Virus record (IMG/VR): IMGVR_UViG_3300001242_000012
DNA from: a virus
Lineage: Duplodnaviria > Heunggongvirae > Uroviricota > Caudoviricetes
DNA length: 41,946 nucleotides
Reading direction: 5' to 3' (one strand)
A program made the translations under genes and the position numbers. Below, in pieces: positions 3,410 to 11,631 of the stretch (position 1 is the stretch's first letter; each line of letters opens with the position of its first letter). A model generated the notes under the pieces. That model worked only from the letters and a program-made list of their open reading frames with translations. It made no database searches and had not been told where the DNA came from.

Positions 3410-3482
3410 TGGATGGCACGGTAAGAGTCGAACTTACGTCACCAGCTTGTGGGCCGGAGCTCTACCATTAAGCTACATGCCA
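3410..3482 (-). tRNA. tRNA-like RNA with a 6-nt anticodon loop (CCACAA), U73 and encoded CCA
   Basis: Acceptor UGGCAUG/CGUGCCA, canonical D and T arms, stem CCGGC/GCUGG. Confidence 0.75.
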
Positions 3483-5644: not shown

Positions 5645-5728
5645 TGGCGGAGGGCACAGGAGTCGAACCCGCTAGGCTTTTACACCCGACTGTTTTCAAG
5701 ACAGTTTGCCACCGTTGGCCTACCCTCC
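5645..5728 (-). tRNA. tRNA-Ser(UGA)
   Basis: Loop CUUGAAA, long variable arm, G73 CCA. Confidence 0.9.
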
Positions 5729-5743
5729 ATATTAAATTTAGTT

Positions 5744-5821
5744 TGGCTGGCATAGCTGGGCTCGAACCAGCAACCTCTTGATTAACAGTCAAGTGCTAAC
5801 TACCTATTGAGCTATATGCCA
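5744..5821 (-). tRNA. tRNA-Asn(GUU)
   Basis: Loop CUGUUAA, G73 CCA. Confidence 0.9.
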
Positions 5822-5888
5822 AGGTTAGTGGGTGTTGCGATCACCCACTAGGTAAAACCTGATATGGTTTAGGACCAGCAGTAGTCTT

Positions 5889-5964
5889 TGGTACTGAGGA
5901 CTGGAGTCGAACCAGCTACCACCTAATTAAAAGTTAGGTGCTCTTCCAGATGAGCTACCTCAGT
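5889..5964 (-). tRNA. tRNA-Lys(UUU)
   Basis: Loop CUUUUAA, ACCA end. Confidence 0.92.
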
Positions 5965-6161
5965 ATACTACGATTAATAAGAACAAATTGATCATCAGCC
6001 TCAAGTATTATATCTGTTGGAAAATTAAAGTTGTTATCATCAGATATATAGTATGCACTTTCTGTCTCAAAATTATTTGGTATGCCATACAGTATAGGAT
6101 ACATTTTGTCTTTTGTAAAGAAACTGTATTTATCCGTAATGCACACAATACTTCCTTGCAT
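5955..6161 (-). CDS. small TxDK(M)Y-family protein
   Basis: FTKDKMYPIL; start moved to the ATG after GAGGTG. Confidence 0.7.
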   Translation of the reverse strand: MQGSIVCITDKYSFFTKDKMYPILYGIPNNFETESAYYISDDNNFNFPTDIILEADDQFVLINRSILR

Positions 6162-6171
6162 ACCAACACCT

Positions 6172-6351
6172 CTAATCAATAAATATAAAATTGCTATCTC
6201 CATCTATCCAATTGGTTGATATCTGTTCGTCTTCATCATCAATTATATAATGATATAAACTATCTGATGATCTAACTAGTATAGGATACATTTTGTCTCG
6301 TGTCAGGAAGGTATATATACCAGTATTACATATTACATATTTAGGTTGCAT
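6172..6351 (-). CDS. small TxDK(M)Y-family protein missed by the ORF track (59 aa)
   Basis: Manual translation MQPKYVICNTGIYTFLTRDKMYPIL... Confidence 0.7.
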   Translation of the reverse strand: MQPKYVICNTGIYTFLTRDKMYPILVRSSDSLYHYIIDDEDEQISTNWIDGDSNFIFID

Positions 6352-6355
6352 ATTG

Positions 6356-6550
6356 TTACCTCAAATATGGATCTAGATCTTCATCACATATCCGACATAT
6401 CTTTAGAACTGGATGATAGGCTGGTGTTCCATCTGGGAACTTGTGATTGCATCCTCTAGTTAGTTTCCGTAACTTTGAGTCAATATTGATTAGAAACTTT
6501 CCACGCTCTTCCTTTAAAGCCATTACCTCATTTATTGTCCTCTGATTCAT
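6356..6550 (-). CDS. hypothetical protein (C.H...C.IC)
   Basis: ORF with AAGGAG RBS. Confidence 0.65.
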   Translation of the reverse strand: MNQRTINEVMALKEERGKFLINIDSKLRKLTRGCNHKFPDGTPAYHPVLKICRICDEDLDPYLR

Positions 6551-6570
6551 AATGATTCTCCTTAGTCATT

Positions 6571-6645
6571 TGGTTGCAGAGGTGGGACTCGAACCCACAA
6601 CCTTTAGCTTATGAGGCTAACGAGCTACCTTTGCTCTACTCTGCG
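6571..6645 (-). tRNA. tRNA-fMet-like (CAU)
   Basis: C1:A72 mismatch, GAGC/GCUC D stem, loop CUCAUAA. Confidence 0.85.
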
Positions 6646-6646
6646 A

Positions 6647-6719
6647 TGGAAGGGAGAGAAGGAATCGAACCTTCATAGCTAGGGTCTTCCTAGGATGTTG
6701 CCTGTTACATCATCTCCCT
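6647..6719 (-). tRNA. tRNA-like RNA with an aberrant anticodon arm (5-nt loop AAGAC), U73 and encoded CCA
   Basis: Acceptor AGGGAGA/UCUCCCU, T arm GAAGG-UUCGAUU-CCUUC. Confidence 0.7.
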
Positions 6720-6887
6720 ATGATATTCATCATAAACCTTTTCATACTCTCTTTGTTCTTCCCAAGACTTAAAGTTCTTAGTTACTTCACAGTCCTCACA
6801 TACTAATGCTTTCACATCATCGAACGTTATATCTTTTAATACCATTGTCTTTTTACATATAGGACATTTTAATTTTTTATATTTCAT
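6705..6887 (-). CDS. small Zn-ribbon protein
   Basis: CPIC...CEDC. Confidence 0.7.
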   Translation of the reverse strand: MKYKKLKCPICKKTMVLKDITFDDVKALVCEDCEVTKNFKSWEEQREYEKVYDEYHREMM

Positions 6888-7080: not shown

Positions 7081-7146
7081 ATGGGAGAATAGTTAAGTAG
7101 GGTATATTATCTGTACGTAGAAGTAACCCTACTTTACACTACCCAT
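7081..7146 (-). ncRNA. Y RNA-like unit A (short, tRNA-less), just downstream of the Ro60 gene
   Basis: AUGGG/CCCAU outer stem, UAGUGUA, 9-bp inner stem, UACUUC, UAUUCU. Confidence 0.7.
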
Positions 7147-7152
7147 GAAATC

Positions 7153-8769
7153 TTAATATCTGTTTATAGTTTCAAGCACATTAGTGTTGTTGACTTCGCA
7201 TGTTTTAACGAAGTCAAAGATCTTTTCTGACCAACCAGCTATCCTATATACGTTAGGTTCATCCATAGGTACCGGTGTAGTACCATATGAAGATAAATCA
7301 ATAGTATATAGTTTGATATCTGGATTTATTGTTCTCCTATAGTCTTTCAGTAAATCAGCTAATGCCTTTCTGCTGCCACCACCATAACCCCAAGCAGTAA
7401 CACCATAGCATTGTTCGTCAGAGAAGATGAAGATTCTATCCGCAAAGGTTTTCTTCTTCAGTAGCTCTTCGACTACACGGTAAGCATTTGTAGACATACC
7501 TTTGGTATCTGCCCTAGCTATCCTATTCATGTTAGTGAATATGGAGTCAGCCGGATTAAGGTTAACAGGGCACCAATCAGTACCGAAAGCACCTACTATA
7601 GAAGACTCACAGAAACCATGAGCCATAGCACATAGTAAATTAGCAATGTTGGCACATGATACCTTGCTTCTTTCTGATACAGCTTGTGACATAGAACCAG
7701 AATTATCAGCTGCAAGCAGTGTTATACCTTCAAGCATAGGGACATTCTGTACACTTATACTAATGGCCTCAGATAATGCTGCAAGTACTTTAGATATATT
7801 AGGATTAGTACCAATTAAGCTTTCCATTTCACGATAAGCACTATAAAATCTAAATGGAAGCTGCTTAGATCTAAGAACTTGATTAGGGTCCTTCAATCTC
7901 TCAATGACACTACCTATACATTTAGCATCAGCATTAATGATGTTCCTTATATTACGGAGCATAGCCATGAAAGGTAAGTTAAGTTCATCCCATACTTCAG
8001 GCTTGTTACCAAACTTACTTACAGCCATCTCCCAGGTCATATCACCAGCCCTAATAAGATGTCTAGCTTCTTCGAAGTTATCTATCTTAGCAAACTCTTT
8101 ATGAGCTTTGTGCAGCACCATAACGTCATCGTTCTCTATATCATGACACATATACTTAAAGATAGCATCGTGCAGTACATCACTTGGTTTAGCACGACAT
8201 ACTCTGATTACATCTTTAATCTTAACTGATTTACTCCTGTCATACTTTAAGAAATGATACTCACCGAAAGTATTCAATACATCGGAGATACCTTTCTTAA
8301 GTGAGTTAGGGAAGGCATGAGTGCCACCTGCTTGACCTTTATCACCTATGTCACCATGTTTACTAACCCAGTAAGCAACTAGTTCAGCAGGTTCATCAGC
8401 ACGCTTTAATATACGAGGAACCCATTTACGAACGAATGGCTTACACTCATTGATTGCTGCAGCTTCACCCAGTAGTACTATAGGTATAGATCTTAAGTAC
8501 ATTTCATTTCTAGCATAAGCAGCTAGCTTTAAGATAAACTCAGGATCTATAGCTGCTACTTGCTTAATGTCTCTGATAATACCAGCAAGAGTTTCAGTGT
8601 TTTTCTGGTAGTAAGTATCAGACAGTAAGCAGTTACATACTTTCTTATACAGTCTAGTTTTAGCATCCATTTCGAAAGCTACACCACCTGCGAGGTTCTT
8701 AATTACATCAGGTCTGTTGACCACACTAGCCAATCTACTGGCAGAATTAAATTTAGACATTAGTGTCAC
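7153..8769 (-). CDS. rsr: Ro60/TROVE-domain RNA-binding protein with C-terminal vWA domain
   Basis: N...GG.AF, DPEFILKLA.YAR....LRS, PFMAMLRNIRN, SKQLPFRFYSAY, DNSGSM (MIDAS), IFSDEQ, IAGWSEKIFDF. Confidence 0.95.
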   Translation of the reverse strand: MTLMSKFNSASRLASVVNRPDVIKNLAGGVAFEMDAKTRLYKKVCNCLLSDTYYQKNTETLAGIIRDIKQVAAIDPEFILKLAAYARNEMYLRSIPIVLLGEAAAINECKPFVRKWVPRILKRADEPAELVAYWVSKHGDIGDKGQAGGTHAFPNSLKKGISDVLNTFGEYHFLKYDRSKSVKIKDVIRVCRAKPSDVLHDAIFKYMCHDIENDDVMVLHKAHKEFAKIDNFEEARHLIRAGDMTWEMAVSKFGNKPEVWDELNLPFMAMLRNIRNIINADAKCIGSVIERLKDPNQVLRSKQLPFRFYSAYREMESLIGTNPNISKVLAALSEAISISVQNVPMLEGITLLAADNSGSMSQAVSERSKVSCANIANLLCAMAHGFCESSIVGAFGTDWCPVNLNPADSIFTNMNRIARADTKGMSTNAYRVVEELLKKKTFADRIFIFSDEQCYGVTAWGYGGGSRKALADLLKDYRRTINPDIKLYTIDLSSYGTTPVPMDEPNVYRIAGWSEKIFDFVKTCEVNNTNVLETINRY

Positions 8770-8784
8770 TCCTTATAATTTGAT

Positions 8785-8871
8785 ATGAGAGAATAAATGA
8801 ATAGGGTAATTTGATGTTTCAATAAGATACTAATTTGTATATATGAAGTAACCCTATCCTACACTACTCAT
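8785..8871 (-). ncRNA. Y RNA-like unit B (short)
   Basis: AUGAG/CUCAU outer stem with the conserved motifs. Confidence 0.7.
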
Positions 8872-8879
8872 AAATTTGT

Positions 8880-9017
8880 ATGGGAGAATAATCACATAGA
8901 GTAGCTTTTAGTGCTCTAACCAACTGAGCTACAGAACCTTTTGATGAGGCCCTGGTAGGACTCGAACCTACGACCACTCGATTACAATTCGATGAAACTC
9001 TATGCTACACTACCCAT
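8880..9017 (-). ncRNA. YrlA-type Y RNA unit C (circularly permuted tRNA module)
   Basis: T arm GUAGG-UUCGAGU-CCUAC precedes a loop-closed acceptor stem, then D arm UAGCUCAGUUGGUUAGAGC. Confidence 0.85.
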
Positions 9018-9024
9018 AATATTG

Positions 9025-9162
9025 TATCAGGAAGAATTGTTCGTTAAGAGTACATAGTGCTCTACCAGCTGAGCTACGGAGCTATCAGTTGCTCTGATGG
9101 GACTCGAACCCATGACCACTCTATTAAATGTAGAAGTAACTCTTAACTACACTGTCCTGATA
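9025..9162 (-). ncRNA. YrlA-type Y RNA unit D
   Basis: T arm AUGGG-UUCGAGU-CCCAU, closed acceptor stem, D arm UAGCUCAGCUGGUAGAGC. Confidence 0.85.
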
Positions 9163-9170
9163 ATAAGCTT

Positions 9171-9311
9171 AGATTAGGAAGAATAAGCTATAAGGGTACA
9201 TTACGTTGCCTTGACTACTTGGCTAACCCACTATGGTTGTGGGTGAGAGATTTGCACTCCCGATCACGGCTGAAGATGCGAAGTAACCCATTATATACAC
9301 TATCCTAATCT
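9171..9311 (-). ncRNA. YrlA-type Y RNA unit E
   Basis: T loop UGCAAAU, ACCCAC/GUGGGU closed acceptor stem, D arm UAGCCAAGUAGUCAAGGC. Confidence 0.8.
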
Positions 9312-9319
9312 TAAAATTG

Positions 9320-9459
9320 TTAGGGAGAATTAAGCGATAAGAGACTATCTAAACCAGTGCCTTGGACCGCTTGGCTAACCCGTGATAGCCACGGGTGGAG
9401 GATTTGAACCTCCGGATGCTGGTGCCCTATTGAAGTAACTCTTATCTACACTACCCTAA
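9320..9459 (-). ncRNA. YrlA-type Y RNA unit F
   Basis: GGAGG-UUCAAAU-CCUCC, ACCCGUG-GCUAU-CACGGGU, D arm UAGCCAAGCGGUCCAAGGC, CUGGU/ACCAG stem. Confidence 0.88.
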
Positions 9460-9467
9460 TAGTTTGC

Positions 9468-9534
9468 GATAGGAGAATAATTAATAGTAGGGTGGCACTT
9501 TTATCAGAAGTAACCCTACATCACACTACCTATC
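9468..9534 (-). ncRNA. Y RNA-like unit G (short)
   Basis: GAUAGG/CCUAUC outer stem with the conserved motifs. Confidence 0.7.
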
Positions 9535-9541
9535 AATATTT

Positions 9542-9625
9542 TAATGAGAGAATAATTGGACAGAGAGCTTTGTATATAAATAAGAAGTTTATTTTTGAAG
9601 TAACTCTGCCCTACACTGCTCATTA
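9542..9625 (-). ncRNA. Y RNA-like unit H (short)
   Basis: UAAUGAG/CUCAUUA outer stem with the conserved motifs. Confidence 0.7.
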
Positions 9626-10542: not shown

Positions 10543-10748
10543 TAAGCGGGTAAGGATTTGCACCTTACATGTCATCAGGAGCTTATCCCTGATGGTCTAG
10601 CTGTTTTTACCTCTAGACAAGGATCTATGAACTCAATAGCTATCTAGAATTACTATATAGCGTCTACTATTGCCCTAAGAAAGGTATGCATCCCTTTTGG
10701 AAAACAGGCTTTACCACCGATTAAGGTGTCTATTCTCGCCACCGCTTA
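10543..10748 (-). ncRNA. 206-nt expanded tRNA-Leu-like RNA
   Basis: UAAGCGG/CCGCUUA, T arm GUAAGG-UGCAAAU-CCUUAC, long variable-arm-like hairpin, large inserts. Confidence 0.65.
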
Positions 10749-11043: not shown

Positions 11044-11244
11044 TCACCTCACCGTATATAGTTCTATGAAATAATATTTGAAAGAAGTGTCTGTAATGTA
11101 ACTATCCGCTTTACATATATAATAGTTATGTCCATTGTCACCGACAACACGTAGTTCATTTCTATCGTCTTGGTAAAGTTTATATATTTTATCTACGGTG
11201 AATATATTAGTAGCCCTGTTCTTACATACCGTATATACTTTCAT
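11044..11244 (-). CDS. small TxDKIY-family protein
   Basis: FTVDKIY...GDN...FKYYF; start moved to the RBS-preceded ATG. Confidence 0.75.
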   Translation of the reverse strand: MKVYTVCKNRATNIFTVDKIYKLYQDDRNELRVVGDNGHNYYICKADSYITDTSFKYYFIELYTVR

Positions 11245-11259
11245 ATACAACCCCCTATC

Positions 11260-11425
11260 TGGTGCACCTGGCCGGTATCGAACCGGCTCTCGTTTCCTAA
11301 GCATAAGATCAAGGATTACGCGCTTCCTTACTCAACTTCACCGAGCGGTTTTTCAGTGCCTCTGCAACCTTATCTCTGCAACCAGTCTCCGTTTTACTGT
11401 GCTCTTTCCATTGAGCTACAGGTGC
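11260..11425 (-). ncRNA. 166-nt tRNA-like RNA with the anticodon arm replaced by a 112-nt segment
   Basis: GCACCUG/CAGGUGC plus ACCA, D arm GCUC-AAUGGAAA-GAGC, T arm GCCGG-UUCGAUA-CCGGC. Confidence 0.8.
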
Positions 11426-11631
11426 ATTAATATAAAGAAAGCATTAAATAAACTATCTATTTTAAGATTACTATCAAGTGAGATTCTAATCTTATGTTCA
11501 GAATCAGATGTAATAGTATAATATTCTTCTTCAGTATCTATATGTAATTCAGTTTCATAAATTTTATCTATAGTGATCATGTAAACATTTGAATTAATAT
11601 GTTTGACAGATCTTTTACAGACTATTAGCAT
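11416..11631 (-). CDS. small TxDKIY-family protein
   Basis: ITIDKIY...SDS...FNAFF. Confidence 0.7.
   Translation of the reverse strand: MLIVCKRSVKHINSNVYMITIDKIYETELHIDTEEEYYTITSDSEHKIRISLDSNLKIDSLFNAFFILMHL

What the first reader, a model, noticed from the sequence alone, without database searches (positions are those of the whole stretch)
11260..11425. Perfect tRNA shell whose anticodon arm is replaced by 112 nt
Seen: a flawless acceptor stem (GCACCUG/CAGGUGC, ACCA), D arm and T arm. Between position 26 and the T stem lie 112 nt instead of ~22. They include a GUUGCAGAG direct repeat and hairpins (CAGU/ACUG, AAGGA/UCCUU), and no U33-type anticodon loop. Inference: a potentially chargeable tRNA shell carrying a payload domain. 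This is tmRNA-like logic but with a true D stem. An unusual intron is the alternative.
Basis: partly seen in the sequence, partly recalled or inferred. Interest (0 to 1): 0.75.

Follow-up and report, generated by a model that had tools for sequence, protein, structure and literature searches.

The report
tRNA-shaped RNA of RNA-repair loci
This is an intact gene for a tRNA-shaped, non-decoding RNA with a near-invariant extra domain; the family is widespread in phages and bacteria, sits beside RNA-repair genes (Ro60, RtcB), and is absent from Rfam.

Summary
On the minus strand (11425 to 11260) lies a 166-nt gene with a perfect 7-bp acceptor stem, D arm, T arm and ACCA end, and 112 nt where about 22 are expected.

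It is not a one-off, a tmRNA-like RNA or a tRNA with an intron. I aligned 61 homologues: Streptomyces phages, uncultured phages of 45-424 kb, and MAGs of Myxococcota, Steroidobacteraceae and Clostridia.
- All share the shell, a short hairpin with an AAAACG loop at the anticodon-arm place, and a near-invariant core (GGUUGC..GCACCGAA..GGGAAGCGCGUU..UCC) at the variable-arm place.
- 95.5% of cells pair, and 29 of 36 pairs show compensatory changes.
- Encoded CCA follows the habit of the neighbouring tRNA genes.
- Rfam 15 has no family for it.

The family travels with RNA-repair genes. Ro60 was found in 5 of 5 cultured carrier phages tested, against 293 of 50,697 phage records overall. The RNA lies 44-324 nt upstream of Ro60 in four loci. 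RtcB lies directly upstream of it in six Steroidobacteraceae loci. This phage encodes Ro60, Band-7 and RtcB.

Most likely it is a protein-docking tRNA mimic of Ro60/RtcB repair particles. The closest described things are YrlA and the predicted, unvalidated "b7a-tRNA".

This scan has met the same family before on other DNA (e1-1682376, e1-5596685, e1-1616953, e1-1919346).

The parts
11260..11425 (-). Whole RNA gene, 166 nt including the encoded CCA (RNA position p = 11426 - window coordinate)
   Evidence: Sequence. Model R1 scores it 113 bits. It is the only copy in the 244-kb genome.
11419..11425 (-). Acceptor stem, 5' strand GCACCUG (RNA 1-7)
   Evidence: 7/7 pairing with 11264-11270. All 7 acceptor pairs show compensatory changes across the 61 members.
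11401..11416 (-). D arm GCUC-AAUGGAAA-GAGC (RNA 10-25), preceded by U8 A9
   Evidence: G10, A14, G18 and GAGC are conserved in the 28-sequence alignment. In the 61-member set G10 and C25 are at least 95% conserved.
11383..11399 (-). P1: hairpin at the anticodon-arm place, CAGU/ACUG with loop AAAACGGAG (RNA 27-43); not an anticodon loop
   Evidence: The stem covaries (CAGU/ACUG, CCCGU/ACGGG, GCUG/CAGC and others). The loop motif AAAACG is nearly invariant. Loop length runs from 8 nt to about 16-17 nt in the bacterial forms, and there is no U33.
11374..11382 (-). Linker holding the first, window-specific copy of GUUGCAGAG (RNA 44-52); its last bases start P2
   Evidence: Relatives have GGCGUG or GUCAUG here.
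11368..11376 (-). P2, 5' strand (RNA 50-58, GAGAUAAGG): long-range helix closing the extra domain
   Evidence: It pairs with 11305-11314 with one bulged G. The equivalent helix covaries in the family (GAUAGG/CCUAUC, GACAGG/CCUGUC, GUGGUGG/CCACCAC).
11356..11369 (-). Core motif GGUUGCAGAGGCAC (RNA 57-70)
   Evidence: GGUUGC, G64, A65 and GCAC are at least 95% conserved in the other 60 members.
11355..11359 (-). P3, 5' strand GCACU (RNA 67-71)
   Evidence: It pairs with AGGAAGC (RNA 98-104). The family has GCACC/GGGAAGC. The window's C71U is compensated by G98A.
11329..11354 (-). Internal loop (GAA of the CGAA-type motif, here UGAA) plus a reduced P4 hairpin (ACC-GCUC-GGU) and the 3' loop ending in GUA (RNA 72-97)
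   Evidence: The family has CCGAAYGG, then a GGCUC..GGGUC hairpin, then UGUA. P4 is replaced by larger hairpins in Moab and Kradal. The window version is the most reduced.
11313..11328 (-). P3 3' strand plus junction: AGGAAGC-GCGUAAUCC (RNA 98-113)
   Evidence: GGAAGCGCGU and C112 are at least 95% conserved in the other 60 members.
11305..11314 (-). P2, 3' strand CCUUGAUCUU (RNA 112-121)
   Evidence: Pairs with RNA 50-58. Helices 4 and 5 show compensatory changes at all six pairs.
11288..11304 (-). 3' linker AUGCUUAGGAAACGAGA (RNA 122-138)
   Evidence: Variable in length and sequence in the family, and sometimes a small hairpin.
11271..11287 (-). T arm GCCGG-UUCGAUA-CCGGC (RNA 139-155)
   Evidence: GUUCGA and C151 are conserved. 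Three of the five stem pairs show compensatory changes.
11260..11270 (-). Acceptor 3' strand CAGGUGC, discriminator A, encoded CCA (RNA 156-166)
   Evidence: All 14 tRNA genes of this phage also encode CCA. Across the family, encoded CCA follows the neighbouring tRNA genes.
7153..8769 (-). Ro60 (TROVE + Ro60 vWA) gene, 2.5 kb downstream on the same strand: inferred protein partner, not shown to bind
   Evidence: Pfam TROVE 1.4e-33 and vWA_Ro60. Co-occurrence statistics.
8891..9146 (-). Two YrlA-like Y RNAs upstream of Ro60 (8891-8995 and 9041-9146); context only, a different RNA family
   Evidence: Rfam RF02553 at 42.9 and 39.0 bits, E 2.9e-8 and 3.8e-7, below the gathering score.

Best explanation
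The locus encodes a stable, non-decoding, tRNA-shaped RNA of a widespread phage and bacterial family.

Shown:
- The RNA keeps a complete tRNA body: acceptor, D and T arms, elbow nucleotides and a CCA-type 3' end.
- At the anticodon-arm place it has a short hairpin with a nearly invariant AAAACG loop.
- At the variable-arm place it has a 65-170-nt domain with a nearly invariant core: helix P2, a GGUUGC..GCAC strand, helix P3, an internal loop with CGAA, hairpin P4, and GGGAAGCGCGUU..UCC.

Inferred:
- It is co-transcribed with the tRNA cluster.
- It is cut out by RNase P and the 3' tRNA-processing enzymes, like its neighbours.
- It is never spliced and never reads codons.
- It works as an adaptor in RNA-repair and RNA-surveillance particles. 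The stem-bulge(CGAA)-stem hairpin of the extra domain docks a scaffold protein, which in this phage is its Ro60. The tRNA body presents a tRNA look-alike to tRNA-binding enzymes such as RtcB ligase, PNPase or tRNA-cleaving nucleases.

In design it is the unpermuted counterpart of the YrlA Y RNAs. It may be the same thing as the predicted 'b7a-tRNA' of Band-7/RtcB systems.
For: Family and structure:
- blastn similarity to Streptomyces phages runs into the insert.
- Motif scans gave 21 metagenomic members, about 20 IMG/VR members and 21 bacterial members. Every true hit of the two core-only patterns lies inside a tRNA shell, wherever enough flank was present to check.
- In the 61-member alignment 95.5% of cells pair and 29 of 36 pairs have compensatory changes. 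The slid controls give 35-47%.

tRNA-type ends:
- Encoded CCA is present where the neighbouring tRNA genes encode it (window 14/14, L109 25/25, L100 22/24 and others) and absent where they do not.
- No promoter-like or terminator-like site flanks the gene on its strand.

Not a decoder, not an intron:
- The P1 loop is 8 nt or longer and lacks U33.
- ARAGORN intron mode gives no consistent solution.

Repair context:
- TROVE is present in 5/5 cultured carrier phages tested, in 12/22 IMG/VR records and in 6/9 complete ones, against 293/50,697 phage records overall.
- The RNA lies 44-324 nt upstream of Ro60 in L028, L045, L062 and L074, and within about 3 kb in L037, L040, L042, L078 and the window.
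- In L062 it sits inside the Y-RNA array.
- RtcB lies immediately upstream in six Steroidobacteraceae loci.
- Band-7 lies 1.2 kb upstream in phage Comrade.
- This phage encodes Ro60, Band-7 and RtcB.

Literature:
- A hairpin with a stem-bulge-stem and a CGAA motif is enough to bind a phage Ro60 at about 17 nM (PMC12135203).
- A tRNA-like RNA next to Band-7/RtcB, sometimes next to Rsr, was predicted as b7a-tRNA (bioRxiv 10.1101/312249).
Against: - No binding, expression or processing data exist for any member. No RNA run was available.
- The element lacks the docking stem shared by the Y RNAs of the same phages. In the window that stem is GGGUAGUGUAG..GUUACUUC with ..AAUUCUCCC; in L062 it is CYGGUGCGMAG with ..GAUCUCRG.
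- Ro60 is not obligatory. Three complete carrier phage genomes have no TROVE hit. None of the nine Steroidobacteraceae genomes has one, and only 8 of 21 bacterial carriers do, never in the same locus.
- Band-7 is found in only 6 of 26 records, and phage-encoded RtcB in 1 of 25.
- In this genome Band-7 and RtcB lie about 60 kb from the RNA.
- The window copy has UGAA instead of CGAA.
- Co-occurrence in the tRNA and RNA-repair islands of large phages could be partly guilt by neighbourhood.
Confidence: 0.55

Rival explanations
1. Decoy or competitive inhibitor. The RNA mimics a tRNA in order to soak up a host tRNA-targeting defence nuclease or another tRNA-binding factor. Its non-cleavable AAAACG loop is held by the extra domain. 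It acts without Ro60.
For: - It has a full tRNA body with a CCA end but no usable anticodon loop.
- It occurs in genomes without TROVE.
- AAAACG could pair with the conserved CGUUU of the junction in most members (idea from note e1-5596685).
Against: - A decoy would be expected to copy the anticodon loops of particular host tRNAs. Instead, loop and core are nearly invariant from actinophages to Myxococcota.
- It also resides in bacterial chromosomes next to rtcB.
- The window and L029 have UAA instead of UUU in the junction with no compensating loop change, so only 3 bp of the proposed lock remain.
Confidence: 0.2
2. A charged tRNA-like carrier. The shell is aminoacylated and donates an amino acid outside normal decoding, or enters the ribosome as tmRNA does.
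For: - It has a perfect acceptor stem, a discriminator base and a CCA end.
- Five members have G3:U70, the alanine identity pair.
- The window copy has A20, C35 and G36 at arginine-type positions.
Against: - Acceptor pairs 2:71 to 6:67 vary freely, 3:70 takes five forms, and the discriminator is A (42), G (14) or U (5), so no single synthetase identity is conserved.
- No tag reading frame is conserved.
- The tmRNA detectors are negative.
- The D stem is tRNA-like, not tmRNA-like.
Confidence: 0.07
3. An intron-containing tRNA. The extra domain is excised and the halves are joined, for example by RtcB, to give a working tRNA.
For: - RtcB is the tRNA-splicing ligase of archaea and eukaryotes, and it is encoded next to the RNA in Steroidobacteraceae.
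- ARAGORN intron mode proposes tRNA-Ile(UAU) with an 86-nt intron for the window copy.
Against: - That ARAGORN model has only 3 pairs in the anticodon stem, and it changes to Thr(CGU) when the flanks change.
- Across the 61 members ARAGORN proposes 15 different anticodons at insertion positions 29-42, and none for 20 members.
- The P1 hairpin, which would be destroyed by splicing, covaries and so is selected as a hairpin.
- The 'intron' is the most conserved part.
- There are no group I features and no Rfam intron hit.
Confidence: 0.05
4. A decayed tRNA gene or a chance arrangement with no function.
For: Standard tRNA finders skip it.
Against: 61 homologues across phyla, with compensatory changes in 29 of 36 pairs and an invariant core. 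The window copy keeps 40 of 44 near-invariant columns.
Confidence: 0.01

Closest known systems
YrlA (Y RNA-like A; Rfam RF02553; Chen et al. 2014, PMC4201824)
   Same: - A tRNA-mimicking non-coding RNA.
- Encoded with Ro60 and sometimes RtcB, in bacteria and phages.
- Has T arm, D arm and acceptor-like helix plus a protein-docking helix containing a CGAA-type motif.
- The two families lie side by side in L062, L051, L074, L078 and this window.
   Different: - YrlA is circularly permuted. Its ends lie in the Ro60-binding stem, which extends the anticodon-stem position, and its acceptor helix is closed by a loop with no CCA end.
- Here the ends are a real acceptor stem with a discriminator and CCA, an anticodon-position hairpin is kept, and the extra domain sits at the variable-arm position and is loop-capped.
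- RF02553 does not match it.
- The docking-stem consensus of the neighbouring Y RNAs is absent.
b7a-tRNA (Band-7-associated tRNA) predicted by Burroughs and Aravind 2016, as described in bioRxiv 10.1101/312249
   Same: - A predicted, experimentally unvalidated tRNA-like RNA of RNA-repair loci.
- Lies next to RtcB and a Band-7 protein, and occasionally next to Rsr/Ro60.
- The present family lies next to RtcB (six loci), next to Ro60 (at least four loci) and near Band-7 (Comrade).
   Different: - I could not read the primary paper, so sequence and structure could not be compared.
- b7a-tRNA is said to 'strongly resemble an authentic tRNA', which may or may not include a 65-170-nt extra domain.
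- Band-7 linkage is weak here: 6 of 26 records.
Yrl1/Yrl2 of Thermus phage phiLo (PMC12135203)
   Same: - Phage-encoded Ro60 partner RNAs.
- The binding unit is a hairpin with a stem-bulge-stem and a CGAA motif.
- The core here (P3, internal loop with CGAA, P4) has that layout.
   Different: - The phiLo RNAs are plain hairpins without a tRNA body.
- No sequence similarity was tested or claimed.
- The window copy reads UGAA.
tmRNA (Rfam RF00023)
   Same: A tRNA-like acceptor and T arm with a CCA end, enclosing a large internal domain.
   Different: - tmRNA has no true D stem.
- It has an alanine identity, a tag reading frame and pseudoknots.
- None of these is conserved here, and the detectors are negative.

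Membership tests
The tRNA-shell/invariant-core family defined here (model R1) | 7-bp acceptor, D arm and T arm with ends at the acceptor stem | tested here: met
   The window copy pairs 7/7, 4/4 and 5/5.
The tRNA-shell/invariant-core family defined here (model R1) | Core GGUUGC..GCAC(C/U)GAA..GGAAGCGCGU..UCC enclosed by covarying helix P2, plus a P1 hairpin with an AAAACG loop | tested here: met
   113 bits with R1 (the window copy is in the seed alignment). 40 of 44 near-invariant columns kept.
YrlA (RF02553) | Match to the Rfam covariance model | tested here: not met
   No RF02553 hit on 11100-11600 at E up to 10, nor on the homologues in four Streptomyces phage loci at E up to 5. True YrlA-like hits exist elsewhere in the window.
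YrlA (RF02553) | Permuted order: 5'/3' ends in the Ro60-binding stem and the acceptor helix closed by a loop | tested here: not met
   The ends are the acceptor stem with discriminator and CCA.
Y RNA in the functional sense (Ro60-bound RNA) | Physical binding to Ro60 | not testable with these tools
   Only genomic linkage and a CGAA-type stem-bulge-stem layout.
b7a-tRNA (Burroughs and Aravind 2016) | tRNA-like RNA gene adjacent to RtcB and a Band-7 protein, occasionally to Rsr | tested here: inconclusive
   The family is adjacent to RtcB in six loci, adjacent to Ro60 in at least four, and 1.2 kb from Band-7 in Comrade. In this genome Band-7 and RtcB lie about 60 kb away. Band-7 is in only 6 of 26 records.
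b7a-tRNA (Burroughs and Aravind 2016) | Sequence and structure agreement with the published alignment | not testable with these tools
   The primary paper (PMC5062991) is not held.
tmRNA | Resume codon and tag frame, alanine identity G3:U70, reduced D arm | tested here: not met
   ARAGORN -m finds nothing at ps70. Rfam tmRNA models give 4.9-12.1 bits. Pair 3:70 is A-U in the window copy and variable in the family.
Intron-containing tRNA | A conserved excision that restores a 5-bp anticodon stem and a 7-nt loop with U33 | tested here: not met
   15 different anticodons, 20 members with no solution, insertion positions 29-42.
Decoding tRNA (class II, long variable arm) | 7-nt anticodon loop with U33 and a purine at 37 | tested here: not met
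   The loop is 8 nt or longer and AAAACG is invariant.

The most novel reading that the evidence does not exclude
The near-invariant core is conserved from an AT-rich jumbo phage to Myxococcota, as strongly as a ribozyme or riboswitch core. It may be an active RNA domain rather than a passive docking site. Examples would be an RNA cofactor that activates or guides RtcB-type ligation of broken tRNAs, or a sensor that reads a damage signal and switches the attached tRNA body. That would be a new functional class of tRNA-fused RNA.
Probability: 0.07. Interest if true: 0.9.

Novelty: new variant of a known kind. Interest (0 to 1): 0.66.

Why it matters
tRNA-mimicking RNAs are known partners of the Ro60 surveillance protein, but only in a permuted form without free tRNA ends. 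This family joins a complete, CCA-ended tRNA body to an almost invariant structured domain. It recurs next to Ro60 in phages and next to the RtcB ligase in bacteria.

It is abundant, lies in cultured and genetically tractable Streptomyces phages, is missed by tRNA finders, is unannotated (or, in LuckySocke, overlapped by a hypothetical CDS call) in the GenBank records examined, and is absent from Rfam.

Defining its partner would make an open question testable: what tRNA-like RNAs do in bacterial and phage RNA repair. That question has been posed since 2014-2016 and has not been answered.

For annotation, it also removes spurious small ORFs that are called across the gene.

Tried and rejected
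- Exact-pattern scans of IMG/VR for the window's own shell or its 5' junction found nothing.
- The first blastn at E 1e-5 found nothing. Only the relaxed search did.
- Relatives found through the phage's Ro60 and DnaE proteins are only about 34% identical, and their loci hold no member.
- Sequencing runs: no RNA holder is listed. The four runs laid are DNA contigs that are either identical to the window or unrelated tRNAs, so they say nothing on expression, splicing or variants.
- Rfam E-value scans gave no meaningful family for the element.
- My early idea of a tRNA-Arg(ACG) derivative was dropped. ACG at positions 34-36 is part of the invariant AAAACG motif, loop length varies, and the shells are not close to the co-resident tRNA-Arg genes.
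- A large 'conserved neighbour protein' cluster turned out to be chained by false ORFs translated across the RNA gene itself. The real signal inside it was Ro60.
- The small ORF right after the gene is conserved only within Gilsonvirus-like phages and is unrelated to the window's downstream ORF.
- Pseudoknot between the AAAACG loop and the CGUUU junction: possible in most members, but both partners are nearly invariant, and the window and L029 lose two pairs without compensation. It is neither shown nor excluded.
- Band-7 and phage-encoded RtcB are much weaker companions than Ro60 in phages.
- The primary b7a-tRNA paper and two Y RNA reviews are not held.
- The single-sequence MFE fold (z -1.9) mispairs the core and was discarded in favour of the comparative structure.

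Full report
**What is in the window.**
Read on the minus strand, 11425 to 11260 gives a 166-nt RNA.
- The acceptor GCACCUG pairs perfectly with CAGGUGC.
- U8 and A9 follow, then a D arm GCUC-AAUGGAAA-GAGC.
- The T arm is GCCGG-UUCGAUA-CCGGC, then discriminator A and an encoded CCA.
- Exactly 112 nt lie between position 26 and the T stem.

ARAGORN and the Rfam tRNA model and 12 ordinary tRNAs around it, all on the same strand, but skip this gene. The window is the minus strand of a 244-kb IMG/VR phage record, estimated complete. It was recovered from groundwater, and identical fragments occur in other groundwater and soil runs. All 14 tRNA genes of the genome lie in this window.

**It belongs to a large family.**
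- A relaxed blastn search found Streptomyces phages whose similarity runs from the shell into the insert. These are Comrade-type Gilsonvirus, Moab, Alone3, LuckySocke, GiJojo, pSt2308, Kela, JustBecause, Kradal and Satis. The homologues lie in or near the phages' tRNA genes. They are unannotated, except in LuckySocke, where a hypothetical CDS is called across the RNA.
- A two-motif pattern recovered 21 true members from metagenomes.
- A pattern using only the insert core recovered about 20 in IMG/VR, from phages of 45 to 424 kb.
- A stricter core pattern recovered 21 in bacterial MAGs: Myxococcota, Steroidobacteraceae, one labelled Alphaproteobacteria and one Clostridia.
- The last two patterns did not ask for a tRNA shell, yet every true hit has one wherever enough flank was present. 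Shell and core are an obligatory pair.
- The own genome holds a single copy.

**Structure.**
I aligned 28 short-form members (A1) and took the RNAalifold consensus. I built covariance model R1 and used it to align 61 members (A3). On A3:
- 95.5% of cells form standard pairs.
- 29 of 36 pairs have changes on both sides.
- Sliding the partners by 1-3 columns drops pairing to 35-47%. The alignment is fitted to the model, so these counts lean towards it, but the same helices were visible in raw sequences from independent lineages.

The architecture has three parts.
- A tRNA acceptor, D arm and T arm.
- P1, a 4-5-bp covarying hairpin at the anticodon-arm place. Its loop always contains AAAACG but ranges from 8 nt to about 16-17 nt.
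- A domain at the variable-arm place. It is closed by the covarying helix P2 and contains GGUUGCRGA, helix P3 (GCACC/GGGAAGC), an internal loop with CGAA, hairpin P4 (replaced by larger hairpins in the long forms) and GCGUU..UCC.

The core is almost letter-for-letter invariant from actinophages to Myxococcota. The window copy is the most divergent member but is intact. It keeps 40 of the 44 columns that are at least 95% conserved in the others, and two of its four differences are one compensatory pair, C71U with G98A. Its first GUUGCAGAG copy and its reduced P4 are lineage-specific.

**What it is not.**
- *Not a decoding tRNA.* There is no 7-nt loop and no U33.
- *Not tmRNA-like.* ARAGORN's tmRNA search is empty even at a relaxed threshold, the Rfam tmRNA models give noise, and no tag frame is conserved. 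Acceptor identity is free: pair 3:70 occurs as CG, GC, UA, GU and AU, and the discriminator is A (42), G (14) or U (5).
- *Not an intron-bearing tRNA.* ARAGORN's intron mode proposes Ile(UAU) with an 86-nt intron for the window copy, but with only three pairs in the anticodon stem. With other flanks it proposes Thr(CGU). Over the 61 members it gives 15 different anticodons at positions 29-42, and nothing for 20. The 'insert' is the best-conserved part, and P1 is selected as a hairpin.
- *Not in Rfam 15.* Nothing meaningful at E up to 10 on the window copy, or up to 5 on four Streptomyces phage loci.

**It has tRNA-type ends.**
Encoded CCA follows the local habit. Where the neighbouring tRNA genes encode CCA, the element does too: the window (14 of 14), L109 (25 of 25), L100 (22 of 24), L096, L107, L097, L060 and others. 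Where they do not, as in the actinophages and Myxococcota, the element does not either, with two mixed cases. No promoter-like or terminator-like site flanks the gene on its strand. This fits release from a polycistronic transcript by tRNA-processing enzymes, which is an inference.

**Genomic company.**
The window encodes a Ro60 orthologue (TROVE plus Ro60 vWA, 7153-8769) 2.5 kb downstream on the same strand. Two YrlA-like Y RNAs lie just upstream of it.

Ro60 linkage across the family:
- TROVE is present in all five cultured carrier phages tested, in 12 of 22 IMG/VR carrier records and in 6 of 9 complete ones.
- Only 293 of 50,697 phage records match Ro60 at all.
- The RNA lies 44-324 nt upstream of Ro60 in L028, L045, L062 and L074, and within about 3 kb in L037, L040, L042, L078 and this window.
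- In L062 it sits inside the array of Y RNAs that precedes Ro60.

Other companions:
- In Steroidobacteraceae the gene directly upstream on the same strand is RtcB in six loci. These genomes have no TROVE hit.
- Band-7 lies 1.2 kb upstream in Comrade but is found in only 6 of 26 records.
- Phage-encoded RtcB is rare, 1 of 25.
- This phage encodes all three proteins: Ro60, Band-7 (C1:1940-2521) and RtcB (C1:5667-6773).

The common denominator is the RNA-repair and RNA-surveillance toolkit, not one obligatory protein.

**How it most likely works.**
The established background is as follows.
- Y RNAs tether Ro60 to effectors through a tRNA-like module (PMC4201824).
- A hairpin with a stem-bulge-stem and a CGAA motif is sufficient for binding to a phage Ro60, and each CGAA base contributes (PMC12135203).
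- A tRNA-like RNA, 'b7a-tRNA', was predicted next to Band-7 and RtcB and sometimes next to Rsr. It was suggested to be interchangeable with YrlA (bioRxiv 10.1101/312249).

The core here (P3, CGAA loop, P4) has the stem-bulge-stem hairpin layout. I therefore commit, at about 55%, to an adaptor model. The extra domain docks a scaffold protein, which is Ro60 in this phage. The CCA-ended tRNA body presents a tRNA mimic to tRNA-binding enzymes.

Against this:
- The element lacks the docking-stem consensus of the Y RNAs in the same phages.
- Ro60 is absent from some carriers.
- The window copy reads UGAA.
- Nothing has been measured.

A Ro60-independent decoy for tRNA-targeting nucleases is the main rival, at about 20%. 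The extreme conservation of the core also leaves room for an active RNA domain, which is the novel case.

**Novelty.**
The concept of tRNA-like RNAs in Ro60, Band-7 and RtcB systems is known. This architecture is distinct from YrlA: it is unpermuted, CCA-ended, and carries an invariant domain at the variable-arm place. It is absent from Rfam, and it is unannotated (or, in LuckySocke, covered by a hypothetical CDS call) in the cultured phage records examined. It may coincide with the predicted b7a-tRNA, but I could not check this because the primary paper is not held.

Earlier notes of this scan describe the same family on other genomes (e1-1682376, e1-5596685, e1-1616953, e1-1919346). I used them only as leads. 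The Ro60 linkage, the RtcB linkage and the structure were re-derived here.

Noticed in passing
window 8785-9625 and 7081-7150 (minus strand): An array of Y-RNA-like units around the Ro60 gene. They share a docking stem (5' GGGUAGUGUAG..GAGUUACUUC, 3' ..AAUUCUCCC). Two of them match Rfam YrlA below the gathering score. ARAGORN intron mode fuses the tRNA-like parts of two neighbouring units into a false 'tRNA-Asp with intron'.
   Followed up: partly
window 10543-10748 (minus strand): A second oversized tRNA-like RNA (206 nt; acceptor UAAGCGG/CCGCUUA; T arm GUAAGG-UGCAAAU-CCUUAC) between tRNA-Thr and tRNA-Lys. Its fold z-score is -2.7. Model R1 does not match it, so it belongs to a different class.
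   Followed up: partly
window 11044-11247 and 11416-11631 (minus strand): The two small ORFs flanking the RNA gene share a short motif (TVDKIYKLY and TIDKIYETE) and may be paralogues. Neither has a Pfam or PHROG match. The upstream ORF's stop codon lies inside the acceptor 5' strand.
   Followed up: no
G000:C1:1940-2521 and 5667-6773 (outside the window): The phage encodes a Band-7/SPFH protein and an RtcB ligase about 3 kb apart near one genome end. This is the pairing described for Band-7/RtcB repair systems, but no tRNA-like gene was found beside them.
   Followed up: partly
L096, L100, L105, L107, L109 (Steroidobacteraceae MAG contigs): The element and rtcB sit at the head of very dense tRNA gene arrays, with 13-25 tRNA genes in 8 kb and nearly all encoding CCA. 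These look like mobile or phage-derived tRNA islands in bacterial assemblies.
   Followed up: no
L092:2642-2874 (Streptomyces phage Alone3, near its Ro60): A match to the Rfam manA RNA motif (47.8 bits, gathering score 55.2, E 1.7e-9) among tRNA genes.
   Followed up: no
L011:335-484 (Streptomyces phage LuckySocke gene 22); also ORFs in L028, L062, L065, L074: Annotated or callable small ORFs (peptides such as MHRMALAGSVGKRV...) are translations across the RNA gene and are probably false gene calls.
   Followed up: partly
window 3410-3482 (minus strand): ARAGORN calls a tRNA of undetermined identity with a two-base 'anticodon' (ac), that is, a shortened anticodon loop. Rfam tRNA scores it 51.8 bits.
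   Followed up: no
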